A stretch of 12,421 nt of DNA, taken from IMG/VR virus record IMGVR_UViG_2925919700_000002, positions 1-12,421 of that record, one strand, 5' to 3'. The notes beneath the pieces are model-generated. The model saw nothing but the letters and a program-made list of their open reading frames with translations. It was not told the origin of the DNA and did not search any database. Position 1 is the stretch's first letter; each line of letters begins with the position of its first letter. Shown piece after piece: positions 1 through 12,421 of the stretch. This DNA comes from a virus. Taxonomy: Duplodnaviria > Heunggongvirae > Uroviricota > Caudoviricetes. The position numbers were made by a program, and so were the translations under genes.

Positions 1-1146
1 TTACGCCTTCTTTATATCCTCCATAATTCCAGAGTGGGACATATTTGGGACATTATCACCAAAAATGTCGTCTATTTTCCTCGAATGCTCTGTCAAATGA
101 TTAGGCGCAAGGTGAGCATACCTACGAACCATTTCTATGGACTCCCATCCGCCCATTTCCTGAAGCACTGATAATGGGACGCCTGACTGAATCAGCCAGC
201 TTGCCCAGGTGTGTCTGAGGTCATGGAAACGGAAATCTTCAATTCCTGCACGACGACAAGCTGATAGCCATGATGTCTTGCTGTCGATGCGCATCTTCCT
301 GACCGCAGGCGTTGATGTTCCATCTGCTCGCTTAGCCGCCTTGGTATGTACAAACACCCATTTGTGATGCTTGCCTATTTGATCACGCAACACTTTACAG
401 GCGGTATCGTTCAGCGCCACACCAATGGCGCGGTTTGATTTGCTCTCTTCTGGATTCACCCAGGCAACTCGTCGCTGCATGTCGATTTGTTGCCATTCCA
501 GATTTATGATGTTCGACTTTCTCAGACCAGTTGCCAGCGCAAACTTGACGACAGATTTCAGTGGTTCGGGGCACTCATCAATAAGGCGTTTTGCTTCCTC
601 CTTTTCCAGCCATCTGACTCGCTTGTTTCTGACCGCTGGTTTCTTGATGACAGGCGCTTTTTCCAGCCACTTCCAGTCGCGTTCTGCAGCACGGAGAATG
701 GCCTTTATCATGGCAAGATGCTTTGCCTTTGTCTGAGTTGATACTGGCTTTGGTTCATAAACAGGCGGTTCTTTACCTTTCCTGATGGCGGCCTGAACTT
801 TCTGTTTCCATATTTCTTTCGTCTTTCTGTTATGCATTCTGCTTACAGCAGAGTAAATCTTTGCCTCCGAGATATCTTTACCAGCTCGTTGCTGCCAGAC
901 GATCCAACCGAGAGTCATATCCCATGCCATGTATTCGTTATCGCCGTTTTTTACTCTACGACGATCTACTAAGTCACCGAAACGCTTTTCCATGAATAAT
1001 TCATAGGCTTCGCGTTCATCTGGCTCTACTTCCAGAGATACGAGTGCGATTTCATAAGCACGGCGCTCAATATCGTCTCGAACCTCTAGGCTGCTGATTC
1101 GTTCTTTGATTTCTTTAATCAGTTCTTTATTGGTAAATGTGGTCAT
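1..1146 (-). CDS. int: Phage tyrosine integrase (P22/DLP12 IntD family catalytic and core-binding domains) with a non-canonical N-terminal ~90 aa
   Basis: 381-aa ORF, stop at 1-3, ATG at 1144-1146. C-terminal region carries the tyrosine recombinase signature ([17 protein letters not shown] ... [39 protein letters not shown]). N-terminal ~90 aa are acidic and helical, unlike the MSLFRR-type arm-binding domain I recall for this family. Confidence 0.85.
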
Positions 1147-1508: not shown

Positions 1509-1723
1509 TTGCGTAACTCCGATAAATCGTTAAAACGTTCCATAAACATCCCGTAGGCATGACCCGGTGCCAGTGGAATCACGTTGAACATCTCTGTTGC
1601 CGGGATGCCTTCCAGTACCGTGGCATTTGAAGAGAAGTATGGCTCCCAGCTGGAGCTGATATTTCGTTTTATCGATCGCGCACTGGCGATTGGTGTGCTG
1701 GCCTGATTTTGTGGAGAAAGTTA

Positions 1724-2107
1724 ATGCGTGATATTCAGATGGTTCTTGAACGTTGGGGAGCGTGGGCGGCTAATAATCATGAAGATGTGACCTGGTCGTC
1801 CATTGCCGCCGGTTTTAAGGGATTAATTCCTTCAAAAGTAAAATCTCGCCCGCAATGTTGTGACGATGACGCGATGATTATTTGCGGGTGCATGGCCCGT
1901 CTGAAAAAGAACAACAGCGATTTGCACGATTTATTAGTAGATTATTATGTAGTCGGTATGACATTCATGTCACTGGCAGGTAAGCATTGCTGCTCTGATG
2001 GTTATATCGGGAAAAGGTTACAGAAGGCTGAGGGCATAATTGAAGGGATGTTAATGGCATTAGATATCCGGTTAGAGATGGATATCGTTGTTAATAACTC
2101 TAATTAA
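1724..2107 (+). CDS. quuD: Late-gene antiterminator Q, phage 82 / DLP12 QuuD type
   Basis: 127 aa from ATG 1724 ([14 protein letters not shown]...), with GGAGAAAG 5 nt upstream. Cys clusters ([25 protein letters not shown]) are typical of 82-type Q. The ORF track's TTG at 1709 is a less likely start. Sits directly upstream of the late/lysis region. Confidence 0.85.
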
Positions 2108-2246
2108 TATGCCAATTGTTTACTGAAAGTTATTAAAAATGGGGCGTTGCAACGCCCCCAAAAATAAAGGGTAATATATAACAGAAGGTTTATATAGTTA
2201 GAAGCAAGGTTGTGCTCCTAAAGGAAGTGGCTTGAGGGAGCCACTT
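2108..2246 (+). promoter_or_regulatory. Presumed late promoter and Q-utilisation region (pR'/qut equivalent); exact -35/-10 not resolved
   Basis: Position immediately downstream of Q and upstream of a plus-strand terminator, as in lambda and phage 82. I could not pick a convincing sigma-70 hexamer pair by eye. Confidence 0.3.
2133..2158 (-). terminator. Rho-independent terminator on the minus strand, downstream of nmpC
   Basis: Perfect 18-bp GC-rich palindrome GGGGCGTTGCAACGCCCC (2141-2158). On the minus strand it is followed by ATTTTT; on the plus strand it is flanked by A-runs, so it is strand-specific. Confidence 0.6.
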
Positions 2247-2287
2247 ATATGTTGGGGAGGCAACGCCTCCCGCAACATATCTTTTTC
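2225..2287 (+). terminator. Tandem hairpins followed by a T-run on the plus strand; candidate late terminator (tR' equivalent)
   Basis: Hairpin 1 at 2225-2246 (AAGTGGCT / AGCCACTT). Hairpin 2 at 2247-2280 (ATATGTTGGGGAGGC / GCCTCCCGCAACATAT, one bulge). CTTTTT follows at 2281-2286. Confidence 0.5.
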
Positions 2288-2296
2288 GTAATCAGA

Positions 2297-3394
2297 TTAG
2301 AACTGGTAAACCAGACCTACAGCAACGATGTCATCAGTGCTTACACCGAGTGCTTTAGTGAAGTCATTTTTGTCAAGCAGGTTGATTTTGTAATCAACGA
2401 AAGTAGACATATTTTTGTTGAAGTAATAGGTTGCACCTACATCAACATATTTGACTAAGTCCTGATCGCCCCATACTCCAAGATCCTTACCTTTAGATTG
2501 CAGGTAAGCAACGGACGGACGCAGACCGAAATCGAACTGATATTGTGCAACAGCTTCGAAGTTTTGAGCTTTATTAGCAACGAAGTGATCAGCAAATACA
2601 GTCATATTCTGGGTTTCAGAATAGGTAGTGGCCAGGTAAATGTTGTTAGCGTCATATTTCAGACCTGCGGCCCAAACTTCTGCATTTTTACCGGAAGCAA
2701 ATACTTCAGGAAGAACTTTCCCTGCATTAACTTGAGTGTCGGTACGATCAGATTTCGCATAAGTTGCACCGATACCGAATCCTTCGTATTCATAGGTAGC
2801 AGAGAAACCGAAGCCATCACCGTTACCTTCGGTGTAGTTATCGAAATCGCTACGATCGTTTTTGCCTTGGTACTGAGCAGCAAAGTTCAGACCATCAACC
2901 AGACCAAAGAAGTCGTTGTTACGATAGGTTGCAACACCAGTGGTGCGACCAGTCATGAACACATCTGTTTGGGTCCAGGTATCGCCACCGAATTCTGGCA
3001 GAACGTCAGTCCACGCACCGATGTCGTATGCTACACCGTAGTTACGGCCGTAATCGATTGAGCCGTAGTCACCGAATTTCAGGCCTGCAAATGCAAGACG
3101 GGTTTTGTCTTTGGAGGAACCTTGAGATTCAGCGCGGTTGCCTTTGAATTCATATTCCCACTGACCGAAACCAGTCAGCTGATCGTTGATTTGGGTTTCG
3201 CCTTTGAAGCCCAGACGAACATAAGTAGTATCACCATCATCTGCATCGTTAGAGGAAAAGTAGTGCTTGGCATTAACTTTCCCGTACAGATCCAGCTTGT
3301 TACTGTCTTTATTATAAATTTCAGCTGCCTGAGCAGACATCGCCATCAGTACTGATGCAGCTACAGCAGAAATTGCCACTGTTAATTTTTTCAT
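2297..3394 (-). CDS. nmpC: Outer-membrane general porin, prophage-encoded NmpC/Lc type (OmpC/OmpF/PhoE family), intact
   Basis: 365 aa. Sec signal peptide [23 protein letters not shown] then AEIYNKD. Porin signatures throughout and a C-terminal ...VGLVYQF ending in Phe. AAGGG lies upstream of the ATG at 3392-3394. No insertion sequence interrupts it. Confidence 0.9.
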
Positions 3395-3982
3395 CGTGAG
3401 CCCTTTTTTTTGAACTATTATTAAAAAATGATGTCACTGCACGATAAATATTCATCTAATCAATGTGATTATTTCAAGATGTAAGTTTTAGTTTCTCATT
3501 TAATTTGTGAAGTAGATCTCTATTTTTATCTGAACTTTTTCTATCGAAACCTATTTATGGCTCTTATTTGAACAAAAATAAATCTATTAGCTAATTTATA
3601 TTAATGGCTGTTATTTATGGTGGTTCTATAATTCGTCTGTTTAATTTAAACCGGCTAAAAATAACACTGGAAATTATTTATTGGTTATTTGTTGAGGTTT
3701 TCTTATGTATTTGTGGTGATGTTTTGAACACTCGGTAGCATTCTCATAAATATCATTCAGTGGTTTACGTACGTAAAAAATTGGTTATGCTGTTAAGAGT
3801 GGTTACTTCGTCACACAGCTTAAACCCGCCGTCGAGCTGGTTTTTCCATTTTTTGAGTCTCGATATTAGCTGATAACTCAATACCTGAGTTATTCACTGA
3901 CTCGGAGTCAGTTACGTTTCTGCTTTTTTGCGATACGTTGTATTCCCTCAATTTACACCCGCTTTGTCTGCGAGGTGGGGTT
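3395..3982. promoter_or_regulatory. AT-rich 590-bp intergenic region: nmpC promoter/regulatory region and lysis-cassette leader
   Basis: No ORF of 60 aa or more. Degenerate direct repeats of TTATTTATGG at about 3552, 3611 and 3675, roughly 60 bp apart. Hairpin ACTGAC-TCGGA-GTCAGT at 3896-3912 upstream of the holin. Confidence 0.35.
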
Positions 3983-4198
3983 ATGAAATTCATGGATAAG
4001 TTAACAACTGGAGTCGCCTATGGCACCTCAGCAGGTAGTGCCGGTTACTGGTTTTTACAGCTGCTCGATAAAGTCACTCCCTCACAGTGGGCAGCAATAG
4101 GTGTGCTGGGTAGCCTGGTATTTGGCCTGCTGACGTACCTGACAAACCTTTATTTCAAGATTAAAGAAGATAAGCGCAAGGCTGCGAGAGGTGAATAA
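3983..4198 (+). CDS. essD: Class II pinholin, phage 21 S type, with dual-start motif
   Basis: 71 aa, [24 protein letters not shown]... Met1-Lys-Phe-Met4 gives antiholin and holin starts. Two TMDs and a charged C-terminus ([13 protein letters not shown]). GAGGTGGGG lies upstream. Stop overlaps the endolysin start (TAATG). Confidence 0.9.
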
Positions 4199-4695
4199 TG
4201 CCTCCATCATTACGAAAAGCCGTTGCTGCTGCTATTGGTGGCGGAGCAATTGCTATAGCATCAGTGTTAATCACTGGCCCAAGTGGTAACGATGGTCTGG
4301 AAGGTGTCAGCTACATACCATACAAAGATATTGTTGGTGTATGGACTGTATGTCACGGACACACCGGAAAAGACATCATGCTCGGTAAAACGTATACCAA
4401 AGCAGAATGCAAAGCACTCTTGAATAAAGACCTTGCCACTGTCGCCAGACAAATTAACCCGTATATCAAAGTCGATATACCGGAAACAACGCGCGGCGCT
4501 CTTTACTCATTCGTTTACAATGTGGGTGCTGGCAATTTTAGAACATCGACGCTTCTTCGCAAAATAAACCAGGGCGATATCAAAGGCGCATGTGATCAGC
4601 TGCGTCGCTGGACATACGCTGGCGGTAAGCAATGGAAAGGCCTGATGACTCGTCGTGAGATTGAGCGTGAAGTCTGTTTGTGGGGGCAACAGTGA
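4198..4695 (+). CDS. rrrD: SAR endolysin (signal-anchor-release lysozyme, phage 21 R type)
   Basis: 165 aa. N-terminal Gly/Ala-rich weakly hydrophobic SAR domain ([22 protein letters not shown]) followed by a lysozyme-like catalytic region. ATG overlaps the holin stop. Confidence 0.9.
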
Positions 4696-5153
4696 GCAGA
4701 GTAACCGCGATTATATCCGCTCTGATTATCTGCATCATCGTCAGCCTGTCATGGGCGGTCAATCATTACCGTGATAACGCAATCGCCTACAAAGCCCAGC
4801 GCGACAAAAATGCCAGAGAACTGAAGCTAGCGAACGCGGCAATTACTGACATGCAGATGCGTCAGCGTGATGTTGCTGCGCTCGATGCAAAATACACGAA
4901 GGAGTTAGCTGATGCGAAAGCTGAAAATGATGCTCTGCGTGATGATGTTGCCGCTGGTCGTCGTCGGTTGCACATCAAAGCAGTCTGTCAGTCAGTGCGT
5001 GAAGCCACCACGGCCTCCGGCGTGGATAATGCAGCCTCCCCCCGACTGGCAGACACCGCTGAACGGGATTATTTCACCCTCAGAGAGAGGCTGATCACTA
5101 TGCAAAAACAACTGGAAGGAACCCAGAAGTATATTAATGAGCAGTGCAGATAG
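4692..5153 (+). CDS. rzpD: Rz inner-membrane spanin (i-spanin), lambda Rz-like
   Basis: 153 aa from GTG 4692 ([29 protein letters not shown]...). N-terminal TMD plus coiled-coil periplasmic domain. GTG overlaps the endolysin TGA (GTGA). The ORF track's 4680 start is less likely. Confidence 0.85.
4912..5094 (+). CDS. rzoD: Rz1 outer-membrane lipoprotein spanin (o-spanin), embedded in the +1 frame of Rz
   Basis: 60 aa, [20 protein letters not shown]... Lipobox VVGC, then a proline-rich mature part ([15 protein letters not shown]). GGAG lies 7 nt upstream of the ATG. Lies wholly inside Rz. Confidence 0.8.
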
Positions 5154-5184
5154 AGCTGACCATATCGATGGGCAACTCATGCAA

Positions 5185-5478
5185 TTATTTTGAGCAATAC
5201 ACACGCGCTTCCAGCGGAGTATAAATGCCTAAAGTAATAAAACCGAGCAATCCATTTACGAATGTTTGCTGGGTTTCTGTTTTAACAACATTTTCTGCGC
5301 CGCCACAAATTTTGGCTGCATCGACAGTTTTCTTCTGCCCAATTCCAGAAACGAAGAAATGATGGGTGATGGTTTCCTTTGGTGCTACTGCTGTCTGTTT
5401 GTTTTGAACAGTAAACGTCTGTTGAGCACATCCTGTAATAAGCAGGGCCAGCGCAGTAGCGAGTAGCATTTTTTTCAT
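5185..5478 (-). CDS. borD: Bor lipoprotein (lambda Bor-type serum-resistance outer-membrane lipoprotein)
   Basis: 97 aa. Signal peptide with lipobox (LLITGC). Near-identical to the lambda Bor sequence as I recall it. Confidence 0.9.
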   Translation of the reverse strand: MKKMLLATALALLITGCAQQTFTVQNKQTAVAPKETITHHFFVSGIGQKKTVDAAKICGGAENVVKTETQQTFVNGLLGFITLGIYTPLEARVYCSK

Positions 5479-5768
5479 GGTGTTATTCCCGATGCTTTTT
5501 GAAGTTCGCAGAATCGTATGTGTAGAAAATTAAACAAACCCTAAACAATGAGTTGAAATTTCATATTGTTAATATTTATTAATGTATGTCAGGTGCGATG
5601 AATCGTCATTGTATTCCCGGATTAACTATGTCCACAGCCCTGACGGGGAACTTCTCTGCGGGAGTGTCCGGGAATAATTAAAAACGATGCACACAGGGTT
5701 TAGCGCGTACACGTATTGCATTATGCCAACGCCCCGGTGCTGACACGGAAGAAACCGGACGTTATGAT

Positions 5769-6179
5769 TTAGCGTGGAAAGATTTGTGTAGTGTTCTGAA
5801 TGCTCTCAGTAAATAGTAATGAATTATCAAAGGTATAGTAATATCTTTTATGTTCGTGGATATTTGTAACCCATCGGAAAACTCCTGCTTTAGCAAGATT
5901 TTCCCTGTATTGCTGAAATGTGATTTCTCTTGATTTCAACCTATCAAAGGACGTTTCTATAAGATGCGTATTTCTTGAGAATTTAACATTTACAACCTTT
6001 TTAAGTCCTTTTATTAACACAGTGTTATCGTTTTCTAACACAATGTGAATATTATCTGTGGCTAGATAGTAAATATAATGTGAGACATTGTGACGTTTTA
6101 GTTCAGAATAAAACAATTCACAGTTTAAATCTTTTCGCACTTGATCGAATATTTCTTTAAAAATGGCAACCTGAGCCAT
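5769..6179 (-). CDS. ybcV: DLP12-type prophage protein YbcV (DUF1398)
   Basis: 136 aa from ATG 6177-6179 ([11 protein letters not shown]...), with GGAAGG upstream. The open frame extends upstream to an ATG at 6221 and a TTG at 6302, so the start is ambiguous. Confidence 0.7.
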
Positions 6180-6464
6180 TGGTAAAACCTTCCATGTGAT
6201 ACGAGGGCGCGTAGTTTGCATTATCGTTTTTATCGTTTCAATCTGGTCTGACCTCTTTGTGTTTTGTTGATGATTTATGTCAAATATTAGGAATGTTTTC
6301 AATTAATAGTATTGGTTGTGTAACAAAGTGCGGTCCTGCTGGCATTCTGGAGGGAAATACAACCGACAGATGTATGTAAGGCCAACGTGCTCAAATCTTC
6401 ATACAGAAAGATTTGAAGTAATATTTTAACCGCTAGATGAAGAGCAAGCGCATGGAGCGACAAA

Positions 6465-6671
6465 ATGAATAAAGAACAATCTGCTGATGATCCCTCCGTG
6501 GATCTGATTCGTGTAAAAAATATGCTTAATAGCACCATTTCTATGAGTTACCCTGATGTTGTAATTGCATGTATAGAACATAAGGTGTCTCTGGAAGCAT
6601 TCAGGGCAATTGAGGCAGCGTTGGTGAAGCACGATAATAATATGAAGGATTATTCCCTGGTGGTTGACTGA
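6465..6671 (+). CDS. ybcW: Small DLP12-type prophage protein (YbcW-like), function unknown
   Basis: 68 aa, [22 protein letters not shown]... GGAG lies 7 nt upstream of the ATG. Divergent from ybcV. Confidence 0.6.
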
Positions 6672-6937
6672 TCACCATAACTGCTAATCATTCAAACTAC
6701 TTAACCTGTGACAGAGCCAACACGCAGTCTGTCACTGTCAGGAAAGTGGTAAAACTGCAACTCAATTACTGCAATGCCCTCGTAATTAAGTGAATTTACA
6801 ATATCGTCCTGTTCGGAGGGAAGAACGCGGGATGTTCATTCTTCATCACTTTTAATTGATGTATATGCTCTCTTTTCTGACGTTAGCCTCCGACGGCAGG
6901 CTTCAATGACCCAGGCTGAGAAATTCCCGGACCCTTT

Positions 6938-9028
6938 TTGATCAAGAGCGATGTTAATTTGTTCAATCATTTGGTTAGGAAATCCGCGGCAACGCGCGCC
7001 GAGACAGCAGCAAAACGGGCAGAGGATATTGCATCCGCCGTGGCGCTTGAGGATGCGAGCACGACGAAAAAGGGGATAGTACAGCTCAGCAGTGCGACCA
7101 ACAGCACGTCTGAAACGCTGGCGGCAACGCCAAAGGCAGTAAAAGCAGCCAATGACAATGCTGAGAAACGTCTGCAGAAAGACCAGAACGGCGCTGATAT
7201 ACCCGATAAGGGACGCTTCCTGAACAACATTAACGCGGTCAGTAAAACAGACTTTGCTGATAAGCGTGGTATGCGTTATGTGCGGGTTAACGCTCCTGCA
7301 GGTGCAACATCTGGAAAATATTACCCTGTTGTTGTTATGCGTTCTGCTGGCTCAGTAAGCGAACTGGCATCAAGGGTCATTATCACCACGGCAACGCGAA
7401 CCGCAGGCGATCCGATGAATAACTGCGAGTTTAACGGATTTGTTATGCCTGGTGGCTGGACTGACAGGGGGCGTTATGCTTATGGAATGTTCTGGCAATA
7501 TCAAAACAATGAACGAGCCATCCACTCAATAATGATGAGTAATAAGGGCGATGATTTGCGCTCTGTGTTCTATGTTGATGGCGCTGCTTTCCCTGTTTTT
7601 GCGTTTATCGAAGATGGCCTGTCAATATCCGCACCTGGTGCTGATCTCGTTGTTAATGATACGACCTATAAGTTTGGGGCAACAAATCCAGCGACTGAAT
7701 GTATCGCGGCGGACGTTATCCTTGATTTTAAGAGTGGGCGTGGTTTTTATGAGTCTCATTCGTTAATCGTTAACGATAACTTGTCGTGCAAAAAACTTTT
7801 TGCCACAGACGAAATTGTAGCGCGTGGTGGTAATCAGATTCGAATGATAGGTGGGGAGTATGGTGCATTATGGCGTAATGATGGCGCTAAAACTTACCTG
7901 CTGCTTACCAATCAAGGTGATGTTTATGGTGGCTGGAATACATTAAGACCGTTTGCTATTGATAACGCAACCGGCGAACTGGTTATTGGAACCAAACTGT
8001 CCGCAAGTCTGAACGGTAATGCATTAACAGCAACAAAGCTGCAAACGCCAAGACTGGTTTCTGGTGTTGAGTTTGATGGTTCCAAAGATATTACTTTAAC
8101 CGCCGCGCATGTGGCTGCTTTTGCCAGAAGGGCAACGGATACGTATGCCGATGCGGATGGGGGCGTTCCATGGAATGCCGAATCAGGCGCTTACAATGTC
8201 ACCCGCTCTGGCGACAGCTATATTCTGGTTAACTTCTATACCGGAGTCGGAAGTTGCCGGACCTTGCAGATGAAGGCACATTACAGAAATGGAGGTCTGT
8301 TCTACCGTTCCTCAAGAGATGGCTATGGTTTTGAGGAAGACTGGGCAGAAGTTTATACCTCGAAAAATCTTCCACCAGAAAGCTACCCAGTCGGTGCACC
8401 AATCCCGTGGCCATCAGATACCGTTCCGTCTGGTTATGCCCTGATGCAGGGGCAGACTTTTGACAAATCTGCATACCCGAAACTTGCAGCCGCTTATCCG
8501 TCAGGCGTGATCCCTGATATGCGTGGCTGGACGATTAAGGGCAAACCTGCCAGTGGTCGTGCCGTATTGTCTCAGGAACAGGACGGCATTAAATCGCACA
8601 CCCACAGCGCCAGCGCATCCAGTACGGATTTGGGGACGAAAACCACATCGTCGTTTGATTACGGCACTAAATCCACGAATAACACCGGGGCGCATACGCA
8701 CAGTGTGAGCGGTACAGCCGCAAGTGCCGGAAACCATACTCATAGTGTCACAGGCGCATCAGCAGTCAGCCAGTGGTCACAAAATGGGTCAGTACATAAG
8801 GTAGTGTCTGCGGCCAGTGTGAATACAAGTGCTGCAGGAGCGCACACTCATAGTGTCAGCGGCACAGCCGCATCTGCAGGTGCTCACGCACATACTGTCG
8901 GTATTGGTGCTCATACGCACTCTGTTGCGATTGGCTCACATGGACACACCATCACCGTTAACGCTGCTGGTAACGCGGAAAACACCGTCAAAAACATCGC
9001 ATTTAACTACATTGTGAGGCTTGCATAA
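6938..9028 (+). CDS. stf: Side tail fibre protein, 5'-truncated: distal ~680 aa only, lacking the N-terminal tail-attachment domain; start codon uncertain (possible pseudogene)
   Basis: Open frame of 696 codons from TTG 6938. Similarity to Stf begins near 6984 ([55 protein letters not shown]). Conserved C-terminal block (GAPIPWPSD ... [31 protein letters not shown] ... [18 protein letters not shown]) matches lambda Stf and StfR as recalled. No in-frame ATG with an RBS near the 5' end. Confidence 0.8.
8596..8957 (+). repeat. His-x-His repeat array within the stf 3' region
   Basis: Repeated [15 protein letters not shown] units (8688-8732 and 8838-8882) plus shorter HTHS/HAHT/HGHT units. These are coding repeats, typical of the fibre-tip domains of lambda Stf and T4 gp37-type fibres. 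Confidence 0.7.
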
Positions 9029-9603
9029 TGGCATTCAGAATGAGTGAACAACCACGGACCATAAAAATTTATAATCTGCTGTCCGGAACTAATGAATTTA
9101 TTGGTGAAGGTGATGCATATATTCCGCCTCATACAGGTCTGCCAGCAAACAGTACCGATATTGCACCGCCAGATATTCCGGCTGGTTTCGTGGCTGTTTT
9201 CAACAGTGATGAGTCATCGTGGCATCTCGTTGAAGATCATCGGGGTAAAACGGTTTATGACGTGGCTTCCGGCGACGCGTTATTTATTTCTGAACTCGGC
9301 TCATTACCGGAAAATGTCACCTGGTTATCCCCGGAAGGGGAGTTTCAGAAGTGGAACGGCACAGCCTGGGGGAAGGATACGGAAGCAGAAAAACTGTTCC
9401 GGATCCGGGAGGCGGAAGAAACAAAAAACAGCCTGATGCAGGTAGCCAGTGAGCATATAGCGCCGCTTCAGGATGCTGTGGATCTGGAGATCGCAACGGA
9501 GAAAGAAACCTTGTTGCTGGAAGCCTGGAAAAAGTATCGGGTGTTGCTGAATCGTGTTGATACATCAACTGCACCGGATATTGAATGGCCAGCCCTACCG
9601 TAG
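9028..9603 (+). CDS. tfa: Tail fibre assembly protein (Tfa)
   Basis: 191 aa. ATG overlaps the stf stop (TAATG). Conserved C-terminal Tfa block [37 protein letters not shown]. Confidence 0.85.
9455..9568 (+). repeat. Direct repeat copy A (tfa 3' conserved block)
   Basis: About 114 bp, roughly 85% identical by eye to 12226-12340, in the same orientation. Confidence 0.7.
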
Positions 9604-9679
9604 GGTAAGATATATAAATTCTATAATTAGAAGTATCTTTCCATTTAAGGCTAGGAAGGGGGGCTTGGAAAACGTAAGG

Positions 9680-9703
9680 AATCTCACACCGAGATTATTT
9701 TTA
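9680..9703. terminator. Weak hairpin between convergent tfa and recombinase genes; possible bidirectional terminator
   Basis: Stem AATCTC / GAGATT with loop ACACC at 9680-9696, followed by ATTTTT on the plus strand. Short stem, low confidence. Confidence 0.3.
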
Positions 9704-10291
9704 TATATCAGGTGTCTGATTTTTTGCTTTAGCTCTTAAAATGGTTTGCCGCGAGGTTTTGAATTCTTGGGCAATGTCACTTATATTTATACCTGACTTA
9801 ATTTGCTCTAGTACCCTCTGTATTTGTTCATCATTTAACACAGGTGGGCGACCAAATCGCTTTCCTGCGCCCCGTGCTCTTAATATCCCTGAATGAGTAC
9901 GCTCAAGTAAAAGGTCTCGCTCAAATTCAGCGACTGCTGAAATTACTTGCATCATCATTTTTCCAGGTGGACTGGTCAGGTCAACGCCCCCCAATGCTAA
10001 GCAATGCACTTTGATACCTGCTTTGGTCAGTTGTTCCACCGTTTTACTGATATCCATTGGATTACAACCGAGGCGATCCAGTTTTGTGACAATCAATGCA
10101 TCACCTCTTTTCAGTCGATCAAGCAACTGGTTAAAACCAGGACGCTCACTGGTTGCTGCTGAGCCGCTAATTTGTTCTTCAATTATTTGCTGAGATTTGA
10201 TGTTAAAACCTGCACTTTCGATTTCCCGACGTTGATTTTTGGTTGTTTGTTCCAGAGTTGATACCCGACAGTAAGCATAAATTCGAGACAT
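9701..10291 (-). CDS. Small serine recombinase (resolvase/invertase family), PinR/PinQ-like
   Basis: 196 aa. N-terminal catalytic motif [11 protein letters not shown] with the presumptive catalytic Ser. Conserved [12 protein letters not shown] and [14 protein letters not shown] blocks. C-terminal HTH ([19 protein letters not shown]). Position after stf-tfa on the opposite strand matches the Rac and Qin layout. Confidence 0.85.
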
Positions 10292-10609
10292 AGTGAGATC
10301 TTCTATACGAAATTGGTGTACATATCATAATGCATCTCAGAAAATAATTTTGATTATTTTTGTACATATTTGTATGTACACGTTCGAAAATAAACGAATG
10401 CGTATGCAACCCCGTAATTTTGGTGAGATCCAAAATCGATTTTGTGAAAAATGGCCTTAACTCGGTTTGTTTTTCGAGTTCCGGGCGGACTCAAGGAAGA
10501 AGAATAGTGTTGCGTGTTATTTTAACCAGATTTCAAGTTGTTTGGTCGTGGAAAAGTGGAGCAAAATGTTGTTAAAGTGGAAAAATGATAAAAAAGTAAG
10601 TTTATTATA
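10292..10609. promoter_or_regulatory. 318-bp AT-rich spacer upstream of the recombinase, with palindromes
   Basis: Inverted repeat TGTACATA-tttg-TATGTACA (10361-10380), with a TGTACATA half-site copy at 10317-10324. Perfect 14-bp palindrome CAAAATCGATTTTG (10431-10444). Direct repeats of AAGTGGAAAA around 10549-10585. No convincing ORF. Confidence 0.4.
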
Positions 10610-10843
10610 TTACATTTTACCATTTAAATTTTTGTTGTCTTTAAGAACTGATATCGCTGTTTGTAATAATTCTTTGTTATCCAGCCATGACTTTTTCTTT
10701 ATGTTTCCTTCAATGTAATCAAGCAATGTTCTGGTATTGATAGGTCTTCCCTGTTTTGCTACTTCCATTACAGCATCCCCTAGGATAATTCTTACTTCAG
10801 GAAGCTGCGCAGGGAACCACTTTAGGGTGTCTTTTGATTTCAT
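10610..10843 (-). CDS. Small prophage protein, YnaE/YdfK-like by position and size
   Basis: 77 aa from ATG 10841-10843 (MKSKDTLKWFPAQ...), with AAGGAA 7 nt upstream. The ORF track's start at 10876 has no RBS. Sits upstream of the pin-like gene on the same strand, as ynaE/ydfK do in Rac and Qin. Identity is from recollection, not alignment. Confidence 0.5.
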   Translation of the reverse strand: MKSKDTLKWFPAQLPEVRIILGDAVMEVAKQGRPINTRTLLDYIEGNIKKKSWLDNKELLQTAISVLKDNKNLNGKM

Positions 10844-11343
10844 GAAGATATTCCTTAAAATATTATTGATTTTCATTGCGATATTGTATGTCTGATTCAG
10901 TATATGTTGACTTATACATCGGTTTTGTCTGGGTTATTGGATATGCCAATCCCTAATTTTATTAGAGCATGACTAAAAATGCTGAATATGATAAGGAGCG
11001 AAGTGATTATCAGTATGCTGTTCATATAGCCTCGAATTAGTAATGTGTTATATATGATATAGTTGACAATTTTTATCCTGGGGGTTCTTAAAGTTCGTAG
11101 ATAAACATTGTCGTTTCAGGTATACAGGAATGCTAACAGGTGGCAGCAAAAATCAGGCGGTTTATGGCGCAAGCTGAAGTGGCAACTGCAAACTATCTTA
11201 TGCAGAGACTCTACACGGATTGGGTTTAAAAGTATACATAGATAACAGTTTTTATCTGAAGAAGAAAAATATCAAGGTGATATAGCCTATATGCCTATGA
11301 TGCGGAGGAATGAATGTGATGGGAGTGATGTATCTGAATAGTT

Positions 11344-11383
11344 GAAAAACCGCAGACACGCCTTAAGCAAGAACGTGCTGCGG
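11344..11383 (-). terminator. Rho-independent terminator downstream of the ybcY-like gene
   Basis: On the minus strand: stem CCGCAGCACG ... CGTGTCTGCGG (plus 11350-11383, one bulge) followed directly by TTTTT (plus 11345-11349). Confidence 0.6.
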
Positions 11384-11390
11384 TTGGATG

Positions 11391-12059
11391 CTATTTTTTC
11401 CCTGAAGCGGAAAACATTACTACAGTACCTTGAACCTTGGTTTTAACATTCTCGAAATGCTCTGAGAGTATATGTGTTAAGCCTTCTTCGGAATCTTTTG
11501 TGTTTGAAAAGATGCCTTTCTGATTGTAAATGCGCATCAGTTTTTGACCGAAGCTATTGTGCACAACTCCATCGCCAAGAATTGTGGCTCCGTATAGAGT
11601 TCCATCGTCAGTTAAGGCCTGCGCCGCATTGCGTATTACACAGCTTTTTGTAGATATATTTCCAGGCAGGCAGTGAAGAAGGTAAAACATGGAAATGGAA
11701 TCAAATTGACCATGTAACGCCGCGGGATAAGGTTCAAAAACATCATGGCTAATTTTATGTTTAATTTTTGATTCCCCAGCCCTTGTAGATGCCGCGTTCA
11801 GGCTAGCTTCGTTCAAATCCATTAAAGATATCAGACTACTCTCAGGTACGTGAGTAAGGTAAAACCCAGTTCCAACACCAATATCCAGATGGTTGTTACC
11901 TAAATGTTCCAGAAAGTGTGGAAGAAGGTGTTCCTTTGTAGGACATCCCCATGCAAGCCGATTTGATACTCCCAAAACCCACCAGTCATAAAGCTTTAGG
12001 GTAAGTGGTGTGTAAATTTTAGCCCCATCATCTGTGTTTTTTTTCATTAATTTCACCAT
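11391..12059 (-). CDS. ybcY: Class I SAM-dependent methyltransferase (YbcY-like), apparently intact
   Basis: 222 aa. Motif I DIGVGTGFY. The start may instead be the second Met (ATG ending at 12047), which has GGTG upstream; the first ATG at 12059 has no RBS. Confidence 0.7.
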   Translation of the reverse strand: MVKLMKKNTDDGAKIYTPLTLKLYDWWVLGVSNRLAWGCPTKEHLLPHFLEHLGNNHLDIGVGTGFYLTHVPESSLISLMDLNEASLNAASTRAGESKIKHKISHDVFEPYPAALHGQFDSISMFYLLHCLPGNISTKSCVIRNAAQALTDDGTLYGATILGDGVVHNSFGQKLMRIYNQKGIFSNTKDSEEGLTHILSEHFENVKTKVQGTVVMFSASGKK

Positions 12060-12115
12060 GTTATAGTTTTATTTGTGAATTAAATCAATTATGGCGATGA
12101 ATTACAAGGGGTTAA

Positions 12116-12421
12116 ATGCTGCCGCAGCATAGCGATATTGAAATAGCCTGGTATGCTTCGATACAACAGGAGCCGAATGGCTGGAAGACCGTCACCACAC
12201 AGTTCTACATCCAGGAATTCAGTGAGTATATTGCGCCACTGCAGGATGCTGTAGATCTGGAAATCGCAACGGAGGAAGAAAGATCGTTGCTGGAGGCATG
12301 GAATAAATATCGGGTATTGTTGAATCGAGTTGATACATCAGTAGCTCTGGGTATGAAGCTGTTTGTAACTCATGTTACAGTAACAGTCATTACTATCTCG
12401 AAGGTGCAAAATGTATATTGA
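12116..12421 (+). CDS. tfaX: Tail fibre assembly protein remnant (TfaX-like), carrying only the conserved Tfa C-terminal block
   Basis: 101 aa. AAGGGG lies upstream of the ATG at 12116. Contains [37 protein letters not shown], then an unrelated tail. Stop at 12419-12421. Confidence 0.6.
12226..12340 (+). repeat. Direct repeat copy B (tfa 3' conserved block)
   Basis: Partner of 9455-9568, same orientation. Confidence 0.7.

What the first reader, a model, noticed from the sequence alone, without database searches (positions are those of the whole stretch)
6672..6990. Deletion junction: packaging genes absent and the tail fibre gene starts mid-protein
After ybcW there is no terminase small-subunit remnant. 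Instead a 265-bp spacer runs straight into a tail fibre reading frame whose homology to Stf begins at the conserved TPKAVK region, with the whole tail-attachment domain missing. The retained part still encodes an intact receptor-binding distal domain, followed by an intact tfa. It could be a reservoir for recombination with infecting phages, or be expressed from an internal start. An imperfect hairpin CCTGTGACAG ... CTGTCACTGTCAGG lies within the spacer.
Basis: partly seen in the sequence, partly recalled or inferred. Interest (0 to 1): 0.4.

Follow-up and report, generated by a model that had tools for sequence, protein, structure and literature searches.

The report
Deletion scar in a decaying prophage
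This is the scar of one 21-kb deletion that removed the packaging site and all head and tail genes from a lambda-like prophage of E. coli, leaving a headless tail-fibre gene fragment; it is ordinary prophage decay.

Summary
The window is a DLP12-type lambdoid prophage next to tRNA-Arg in E. coli. It is 99.98% identical to strain MB06234.

The deletion junction is real, but it lies at window 6981-6982. It is not at the ORF's first start codon (6938) and not at the TPKAVK motif (7127-7144).

Strain JNU carries the intact, collinear prophage. Against it the window lacks exactly 21,178 bp, joined across a 2-bp AA microhomology. The lost DNA holds:
- the promoter and first 16 codons of ylcI;
- cosN;
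- nohD, the large terminase, all head and tail genes, and lom;
- codons 1-436 of a 1117-codon stfR-type side tail fibre gene.

The "265-bp spacer" is not empty. Its right part is the 3' remnant of ylcI on the minus strand.

The retained stf' (codons 437-1117) has no tail-attachment domain and no credible start or ribosome-binding site. PGAP already marks it as a pseudogene. tfa is intact.

The right arm is 100% identical to JNU, so intact reading frames say nothing about selection.

The hairpin is not better than chance. It lies about 240 bp from the junction, in an intergenic region that intact prophages share.

Only 3 of 5,426 complete genomes carry this junction. K-12 and KSC9 have independent deletions of similar size at the same locus.

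The verdict is a known kind of event of low interest.

The parts
6465..6671 (+). ybcW, the last intact gene left of the scar
   Evidence: 68-aa ORF. Annotated as protein YbcW, WP_001031427.1, in MB06234, JNU and K-12.
6672..6835 (.). ybcW-ylcI intergenic region, inherited unchanged from the parent prophage. It holds the imperfect hairpin at 6705-6742.
   Evidence: Window 6820-6982 is identical to strain FDAARGOS_536, which is intact at this point, and window 6400-6982 matches it at 100%. Hairpin z-scores are -0.75 and -1.68, and no terminator-like site was found.
6836..6982 (-). 3' remnant of ylcI (YlcI/YnfO, DUF3950): codons 17-64 plus stop. The promoter, start codon and first 16 codons are deleted.
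   Evidence: Parent YlcI is [24 protein letters not shown]... (64 aa). The remnant starts at FPNQ. PF13132 E = 2.4e-20. The alignment with intact ylcI ends at 6982.
6981..6982 (.). Deletion junction with a 2-bp AA microhomology shared by both parental sequences
   Evidence: The left parent is identical through 6982 and the right parent is identical from 6981. The deleted segment is 21,178 bp relative to JNU.
6938..6980 (+). Spurious 5' extension of the stf' reading frame (TTG at 6938). It is the antisense of ylcI, not fibre sequence.
   Evidence: Translation [15 protein letters not shown] has no counterpart in StfR. No Shine-Dalgarno match better than 4 of 6 before any in-frame start.
6983..9028 (+). 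stf': the 3' 61% (codons 437-1117) of an stfR-type side tail fibre gene, a 5'-truncated pseudogene
   Evidence: 680 of 682 residues identical to StfR of strain C9, residues 436-1117, and identical to JNU StfR apart from the junction codon. It lacks PF08400 and keeps the Phage_fiber_2, Gp34_trimer, gp37_C and Collar matches. PGAP marks it 'incomplete; missing N-terminus'.
9028..9603 (+). tfa, an intact tail fibre assembly chaperone gene. Its start overlaps the stf stop (TAATG), and GAGG lies 8 nt upstream.
   Evidence: PF02413 E = 2e-43. Same protein (WP_050877076.1) as in the intact JNU prophage. Start context.
9701..10291 (-). Pin-family serine recombinase downstream of tfa, part of the retained right arm
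   Evidence: Resolvase and HTH_7 domains. No inverted crossover sites in the window.
6836..7027 (-). CDS that PGAP calls 'YlcI/YnfO family protein' (63 codons). It is chimeric: its first 15 codons are antisense stf, and its first codon reads ATC.
   Evidence: L001 9437-9628 corresponds to window 6836-7027. The translation is [20 protein letters not shown]....

Best explanation
The region is the scar of a single illegitimate (microhomology-mediated) deletion of 21,178 bp inside a DLP12-type lambdoid prophage integrated at tRNA-Arg.

What is shown:
- One end of the deletion lay in codon 16/17 of the minus-strand gene ylcI. The other lay in codon 436/437 of the plus-strand side tail fibre gene stfR. 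The ends were joined across a shared AA dinucleotide.
- Everything between is lost: the ylcI promoter and start, cosN, nohD (Nu1), the large terminase, portal, protease, capsid, tail shaft, tape measure, tip (J), lom, and the fibre's tail-attachment and proximal shaft region.
- The prophage therefore can neither package DNA nor build virions.
- Two gene fragments abut tail-to-middle: the ylcI remnant and stf'.

What is inferred:
- stf' has no start codon with a ribosome-binding site, and no promoter of its own was detected. It is most likely an untranslated pseudogene.
- It would be transcribed, if at all, by read-through of the QuuD-antiterminated late transcript that also covers essD-rrrD-rzpD.
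- tfa, which has its own GAGG 8 nt before the ATG, could be translated from such a transcript.
- The fragment can still donate sequence to infecting lambdoid phages by homologous recombination.
For: - Locus identity: searches match the window to MB06234, where tRNA-Arg, integrase, quuD, porin, essD, rrrD, rzpD, bor, ybcV and ybcW lie in DLP12 order. One search gives 3 mismatches in 12,421 bp.
- Intact parent: one search shows that strain JNU has, at the same chromosomal site, a complete prophage. It carries ybcW-ylcI-nohD-terminase...J-lom-stfR(1117 aa)-tfa-recombinase-ydfK-methyltransferase, and many of its protein accessions are identical to those of the window strain.
- Deletions: one search aligns the junction strain to JNU in collinear blocks. 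One break runs from JNU 31937 to 10760 with a 2-bp overlap. One search gives the deletion as 21,178 bp, the parental junction sequences, and 0 mismatches over window 6981-12421.
- Base-level breakpoints.
- Fibre fragment: equate stf' with StfR 437-1117. One search shows PF08400 (residues 1-134) only in the full-length protein.
- cos: searches find cosN (GGGCGGCGACCT) between ylcI and nohD in the three loci that are intact there (L002, L004, L006). It is absent from the window and from the junction strains.
- Not an assembly artefact: one search finds the junction in 3 independent complete assemblies.
- Same kind of event elsewhere: searches show that K-12 DLP12 (aaaD'/tfaD', TAT microhomology) and strain KSC9 have independent deletions of similar size (about 21 to 22 kb) at the same locus.
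- Expression: one search finds no start with a good Shine-Dalgarno match for stf'. One search finds promoter-like sites at chance level.
Against: JNU is not the literal ancestor. The left arm differs at 23 of 5,367 positions, against 0 of 5,441 on the right. The parent is therefore inferred from a close relative.

Expression was not measured. Absence of a Shine-Dalgarno match does not exclude leaderless or weak initiation.

A 2-bp microhomology is too short to tell replication slippage from end joining.
Confidence: 0.93

Rival explanations
1. The truncated fibre is a working gene. An N-terminally shortened Stf is translated from an internal or non-canonical start, folded by Tfa, and acts in the cell. 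It might block a receptor (superinfection exclusion or anti-phage defence, as reported for the chimeric StfE2 of prophage e14), or infecting phages might use it.
For: The 681 fibre codons and tfa have no frameshift or stop. A Pin-family recombinase sits beside them. A cryptic-prophage tail fibre protein has been reported to block T2 adsorption (PMC12529663). An independent deletion in KSC9 also keeps distal stf, tfa and pin, there as an in-frame fusion with a real start codon.
Against: No in-frame start between 6938 and 7565 has a Shine-Dalgarno match better than 4 of 6. Promoter-like sites are at chance level. PGAP calls it a pseudogene. The right arm has zero differences from the intact prophage, so intactness reflects recency and not selection. 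K-12 lost stf entirely at the same locus. The crossover sites used in the e14 system are absent.
Confidence: 0.05
2. The junction arose by recombination between two different prophages, or by import of a foreign stf-tfa-pin module next to ylcI. It would then not be an internal deletion of one prophage.
For: PGAP names the best-matching full-length genes stfR, the name of the Rac fibre gene, and each genome holds several such genes. The left and right arms differ in their divergence from JNU, 23 against 0 mismatches.
Against: JNU carries both arms in the same order and orientation in one complete prophage at the same tRNA-Arg site. Its downstream genes (methyltransferase, tfaX-like fragment, hydrolase, ompT) have identical protein accessions. 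A single deletion explains the structure, whereas the rival needs an extra event.
Confidence: 0.02
3. The deletion was made by the neighbouring Pin-family site-specific recombinase acting on quasi-sites.
For: A Pin-family recombinase lies 0.7 kb downstream of stf'. The junction overlap is 2 bp, the size of the staggered cut made by serine invertases (established knowledge of the Hin/Gin/Cin/Pin family).
Against: Neither parental breakpoint resembles invertase crossover sites. The e14 site TTGGTTTGGGAGAAGG has no match in the window within 3 mismatches. The core AAACCNNGGTTT has one 1-mismatch hit, far away at 11432 and at chance frequency. No inverted-repeat pair stands out. K-12's deletion at the same locus has a 3-bp TAT overlap.
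Confidence: 0.01

Closest known systems
Cryptic prophage DLP12 of E. coli K-12 (the nohD-aaaD'-tfaD' region)
   Same: Same chromosomal site (tRNA-Arg to ompT). Same left arm: quuD, porin, essD, rrrD, rzpD, bor, ybcV, ybcW. It also has a deletion of similar size (about 22 kb) that removed the head and tail genes across a 3-bp microhomology.
   Different: The K-12 deletion runs from inside the large terminase gene (aaaD') to inside tfa. K-12 therefore keeps ylcI, cos and nohD, and it loses stf. Pin and ydfK are also absent there. Here ylcI is truncated, cos and nohD are gone, and 61% of stf plus all of tfa, pin and ydfK remain.
Intact DLP12-type lambdoid prophage of E. coli strain JNU (NZ_CP083263.1)
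   Same: Collinear with the window on both sides of the scar. The right arm is 100% identical and the left arm 99.6% identical.
   Different: It holds the 21,178 bp missing here, and also the early region that the window strain lost in two further deletions.
Side tail fibre Stf with chaperone Tfa of lambdoid phages (Ur-lambda stf/tfa; StfR/TfaR of Rac)
   Same: The distal two thirds are identical to StfR-type fibres. stf'-tfa DNA is 98.1% identical to phage 2H10, and about 97 to 98% identical over about 94% of its length to phages Kati, mEp332, ev099 and PhiR34_1. Tfa is a Caudo_TAP protein.
   Different: The PF08400 tail-attachment domain and about 300 residues of proximal shaft are missing, as is the start codon.
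Defective prophages as DNA donors for temperate phages (De Paepe et al. 2014, PMC3945230)
   Same: In that work lambda recombined with the stf/tfa regions of Rac and Qin and with DLP12. The fragment here offers 2.6 kb of 97-98% identity to known phages.
   Different: No recombination was tested here. With cos deleted, the stimulation of recombination near cos reported for K-12 DLP12 would not apply.
PinQ/PinE inversion of the e14 P segment producing StfE2 (Kirigo et al. 2025, PMC12529663)
   Same: A cryptic-prophage tail fibre gene lies next to a Pin-family serine recombinase.
   Different: There is no invertible segment, no inverted crossover sites and no alternative fibre or tfa copy between tfa and the recombinase gene.

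Membership tests
DLP12-type lambdoid prophage at tRNA-Arg | Integrated beside the tRNA-Arg gene next to fimZ, with ompT and envY beyond the right end | tested here: met
   MB06234 locus: fimZ, tRNA-Arg, integrase remnant ... ompT, envY. Same flanks in JNU. K-12 shows the same right end, ompT.
DLP12-type lambdoid prophage at tRNA-Arg | Late-region order quuD, porin(-), essD, rrrD, rzpD, bor(-), ybcV(-), ybcW, ylcI(-) | tested here: met
   Same order and gene names. ylcI is present only as a 3' remnant.
Illegitimate (microhomology) deletion | Both flanks collinear and contiguous with one intact parental sequence, with nothing inserted at the junction | tested here: met
   The blastn blocks end and start at JNU 31937 and 10760, and no extra bases lie between them.
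Illegitimate (microhomology) deletion | Only a few bases of identity between the two parental breakpoints | tested here: met
   2-bp AA overlap at window 6981-6982.
Functional lambdoid side tail fibre (Stf) | N-terminal tail-attachment domain (PF08400, prophage tail fibre N-terminal) | tested here: not met
   PF08400 matches residues 1-134 of the full-length StfR (E = 1e-71) and is absent from the window fragment.
Functional lambdoid side tail fibre (Stf) | Start codon with a ribosome-binding site | tested here: not met
   The best Shine-Dalgarno match before any in-frame ATG, GTG or TTG between 6938 and 7565 is 4 of 6.
Functional lambdoid side tail fibre (Stf) | Intact distal (receptor-binding) part | tested here: met
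   Residues 437-1117 have no stop or frameshift. Gp34_trimer, gp37_C and Collar matches are present.
Tail fibre assembly protein (Tfa, Caudo_TAP) | Full-length PF02413 protein directly downstream of the fibre gene | tested here: met
   191 aa, PF02413 E = 2e-43, start overlapping the stf stop.
Invertible tail fibre segment (Mu G, P1 C, e14 P) | A pair of inverted crossover sites flanking alternative fibre C-termini, next to the invertase gene | tested here: not met
   No match to the e14 site within 3 mismatches. No convincing inverted repeats in 6300-10500. Only 98 bp separate tfa from the recombinase gene.
Intrinsic terminator (the hairpin at 6705-6742) | A stable G+C-rich stem followed by a T-run, and more stable than shuffled sequence | tested here: not met
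   0 terminator-like sites in 6300-7400. z = -0.75 and -1.68.

The most novel reading that the evidence does not exclude
Independent deletions in DLP12-type prophages (this lineage and KSC9) keep distal stf, tfa and pin because the headless fibre fragment is expressed. It would act as a receptor-masking anti-phage or superinfection-exclusion protein, analogous to StfE2 of e14. In this lineage it would be translated by non-canonical initiation from the QuuD-dependent late transcript.
Probability: 0.04. Interest if true: 0.5.

Novelty: already known. Interest (0 to 1): 0.1.

Why it matters
It matters little beyond annotation.

- It gives a base-exact, datable example of how a lambdoid prophage is disarmed: one deletion removes cos and all virion genes but spares the lysis cassette, bor and the fibre tip.
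- The intact progenitor type is still circulating (strain JNU).
- Two other independent deletions at the same locus are available for comparison.
- It flags a chimeric 'YlcI/YnfO family protein' call in RefSeq.

If the fragment were shown to be expressed it would bear on the recent idea that cryptic-prophage fibre proteins act in phage defence. Nothing here points that way.

Tried and rejected
- Hairpin as a terminator or recombination signal. The fold is no better than shuffles, there is no T-run, it lies about 240 bp from the breakpoint, and it is present in intact prophages.
- Pin-mediated deletion or a local invertible segment. No crossover-site matches and no meaningful inverted repeats.
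- Internal start for stf'. No start with a good Shine-Dalgarno match, and no excess of promoter-like sites.
- A known RNA in the 'spacer'. Rfam at gathering thresholds gives only IS009, inside tfa.
- Assembly artefact. The same junction occurs in three independent complete assemblies from the Galapagos, a human host and Swiss soil.
- A shared GGAWWCC motif at the right endpoints of the three deletions in the window strain. It does not hold for the K-12 deletion (GATAT|TCC). I treat it as post hoc and probably chance.
- Not run, because the E. coli genome set answered the question: protein-database homology searches, structure prediction, and scans of the metagenome and GTDB collections.

Full report
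**What the window is.** A megablast of window 6400-7400 against 5,426 complete E. coli genomes gives full-length matches in only three: MB06234, AREA_497 and MEI7BO1-21. Thousands of other genomes match only query bases 1-583/585, which is window 6400-6982/6984. The whole window aligns to MB06234 with 3 mismatches in 12,421 bp, none of them in the finding. The MB06234 annotation shows the DLP12 layout beside tRNA-Arg. The order is integrase remnant, quuD, porin, essD, rrrD, rzpD, bor, ybcV and ybcW; then a short 'YlcI/YnfO family protein' and a 'phage tail fiber protein' pseudogene marked as missing its N-terminus; then tfa, a recombinase, ydfK, a methyltransferase, a tfa fragment, a hydrolase and ompT.

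**The breakpoint.** Aligned with a prophage that is intact at this point (FDAARGOS_536: ybcW, ylcI, nohD, terminase), the window is identical through 6982 and then unrelated. A search with window 6975-7300 finds more than a thousand genomes that cover most of the query. The best match 100% from query base 7, which is window 6981, inside full-length genes annotated stfR. A three-way alignment shows the join:
- left parent: ...GGTTAGGAAA|GCGG
- right parent: ...ACGGCGGAA|TCCGCGG
- window: ...GGTTAGGAAATCCGCGG

The two parents share only AA at 6981-6982.

**The parent prophage and what was lost.** Strain JNU carries a complete lambdoid prophage at the same chromosomal site. It runs intD ... quuD, porin, essD, rrrD, rzpD, bor, ybcV, ybcW, ylcI, nohD, large terminase, portal, protease, capsid, tail genes, J, lom, stfR (1117 aa), tfa, recombinase, ydfK, methyltransferase ... 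ompT. Many of its protein accessions are identical to those of the window strain. blastn of the junction strain against JNU gives four collinear blocks. The break relevant here runs from JNU locus position 31937 to 10760, with a 2-bp overlap. The missing segment is 21,178 bp.

It contains the first 16 codons and the upstream region of ylcI. The parent protein reads [24 protein letters not shown].... It contains the lambda-type cosN sequence GGGCGGCGACCT. That sequence lies between ylcI and nohD in the three loci that are intact there (L002, L004, L006), and it is absent from the window and the junction strains. It also contains every packaging, head and tail gene, and codons 1-436 of stfR.

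**What remains.** On the minus strand, 6836-6982 is the ylcI remnant (DUF3950, E = 2.4e-20). On the plus strand, from 6981/6983 to 9028, lie codons 437-1117 of the fibre. Of 682 residues, 680 are identical to StfR of strain C9. They are identical to JNU's StfR except at the junction codon. Pfam places the prophage tail fibre N-terminal domain (PF08400) at residues 1-134 of the full-length protein only. The fragment keeps the Phage_fiber_2 repeat that holds TPKAVK, and the Gp34_trimer, gp37_C and Collar matches. tfa (9028-9603) is complete (PF02413, E = 2e-43). Its start overlaps the stf stop, and GAGG lies 8 nt upstream.

- The 'spacer' between ybcW and the ORF's first possible start (6672-6937) is not empty. 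Its right part is ylcI coding sequence read backwards.
- Codons 6938-6980 of the long ORF are antisense ylcI, not fibre.
- Fibre homology starts 49 codons before TPKAVK, which lies at 7127-7144.
- The hairpin arms are at 6705-6714 and 6729-6742. They lie in the ybcW-ylcI intergenic region, which intact prophages carry unchanged.
- The hairpin's folding energy is within the range of shuffles: z = -0.75 and -1.68. No terminator-like site is found.

**Is stf' expressed?** No in-frame ATG, GTG or TTG between 6938 and 7565 is preceded by more than 4 of 6 matches to AGGAGG. Two promoter-like sites occur in 6300-7400, against 2.0 expected by chance. From the established organisation of lambdoid prophages, the Q-antiterminated late transcript runs from downstream of Q through the lysis genes into the structural genes. 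Here it would run across the scar into stf' and tfa. That is an inference and was not measured.

The open frame does not argue for selection. Window 6981-12421 has no difference at all from JNU, so the deletion is too recent for decay to show.

**How common, and how typical.** This junction occurs in 3 of 5,426 genomes. The same locus shows independent deletions of similar size:
- K-12 DLP12 joins the large terminase remnant aaaD' to tfaD' across a TAT microhomology (JNU 30673 to 8567).
- Strain KSC9 joins terminase codon 84 in frame to the distal fibre (JNU about 30725 to 9345).

The finding is therefore one more allele of a familiar process.

**Functional ideas.** Uptake of stf/tfa DNA from defective prophages by infecting lambdoid phages has been shown experimentally (PMC3945230). 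Sequenced phages carry 97-98% identical stf-tfa DNA: 2H10 over the full length, and Kati, mEp332, ev099 and PhiR34_1 over about 94% of it. The donor role is plausible, but it is neither new nor tested here.

A recent report has Pin-family recombinases creating a chimeric fibre protein in e14 that blocks T2 adsorption (PMC12529663). That prompted a check for an invertible segment. The e14 crossover site, the invertase core motif and inverted repeats are all absent or at chance level.

**Verdict.** This is a real, precisely mapped deletion scar in a decaying prophage. RefSeq already annotates the fibre fragment as a pseudogene. It is a known kind of event of low interest.

Noticed in passing
window 879-880 and 1616-1618 (L001 3480-3481 and 4217-4219): Relative to JNU the window strain has two more deletions in the early region. 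One of 548 bp runs from the integrase 5' part to the yfdT 3' end. One of about 8.7 kb runs from yfdR to the DUF968 gene. They have 2-bp and 3-bp microhomologies. MEI7BO1-21 shares the stf junction but keeps intD and yfdT-yfdR intact, so not all three deletions have the same history.
   Followed up: partly
window about 1616 (JNU locus L004 37303); L005 11656; L006 22733: In three strains the early-region deletion has three different left endpoints (JNU 46040, 44952 and 44871) joined to the same right endpoint...GCGGA|TACCGTGGCATTTG, within 0-4 bp. This looks like nested deletions anchored at one site and is unexplained. The right endpoints of all three deletions in the window strain read GGAWWCC, but K-12's does not. 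The motif was noticed post hoc.
   Followed up: partly
window 6836-7027 (-): RefSeq/PGAP annotates a 63-codon 'YlcI/YnfO family protein' (WP_227912901.1; WP_474951893.1 in MEI7BO1-21). Its first 15 codons are antisense stf sequence and its first codon is ATC. It overlaps the stf' pseudogene by 48 nt and is very probably an annotation artefact of the junction.
   Followed up: yes
L006 27706-28752 (strain KSC9): An independent deletion fused the first 84 codons of the large terminase in frame to the distal roughly 240 residues of a related Stf. The result is a 348-aa ORF with a genuine start codon, annotated as an intact 'phage tail protein'.
   Followed up: partly
window 9371-9569 (+): Rfam family IS009 (RF02111) matches at 212.6 bits. 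The match lies entirely inside the tfa coding sequence, so the 'RNA family' here coincides with a conserved protein-coding stretch.
   Followed up: no
window 2297-3394 (-): The porin gene between quuD and essD is intact (365 aa, WP_000737283.1). Its K-12 counterpart nmpC is split by IS5.
   Followed up: no
window 1616-6982 versus 6981-12421: Against JNU the left arm has 23 mismatches in 5,367 bp and the right arm has none in 5,441 bp. The two arms therefore have different recent histories, probably a recombination patch in the lysis/bor/ybcV region.
   Followed up: no
window 9701-10291 (-): A Pin-family serine recombinase (Resolvase and HTH_7 domains) has no crossover sites or invertible segment nearby. 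Like PinQ and PinR of K-12, it could only act in trans on a segment elsewhere in the genome.
   Followed up: partly
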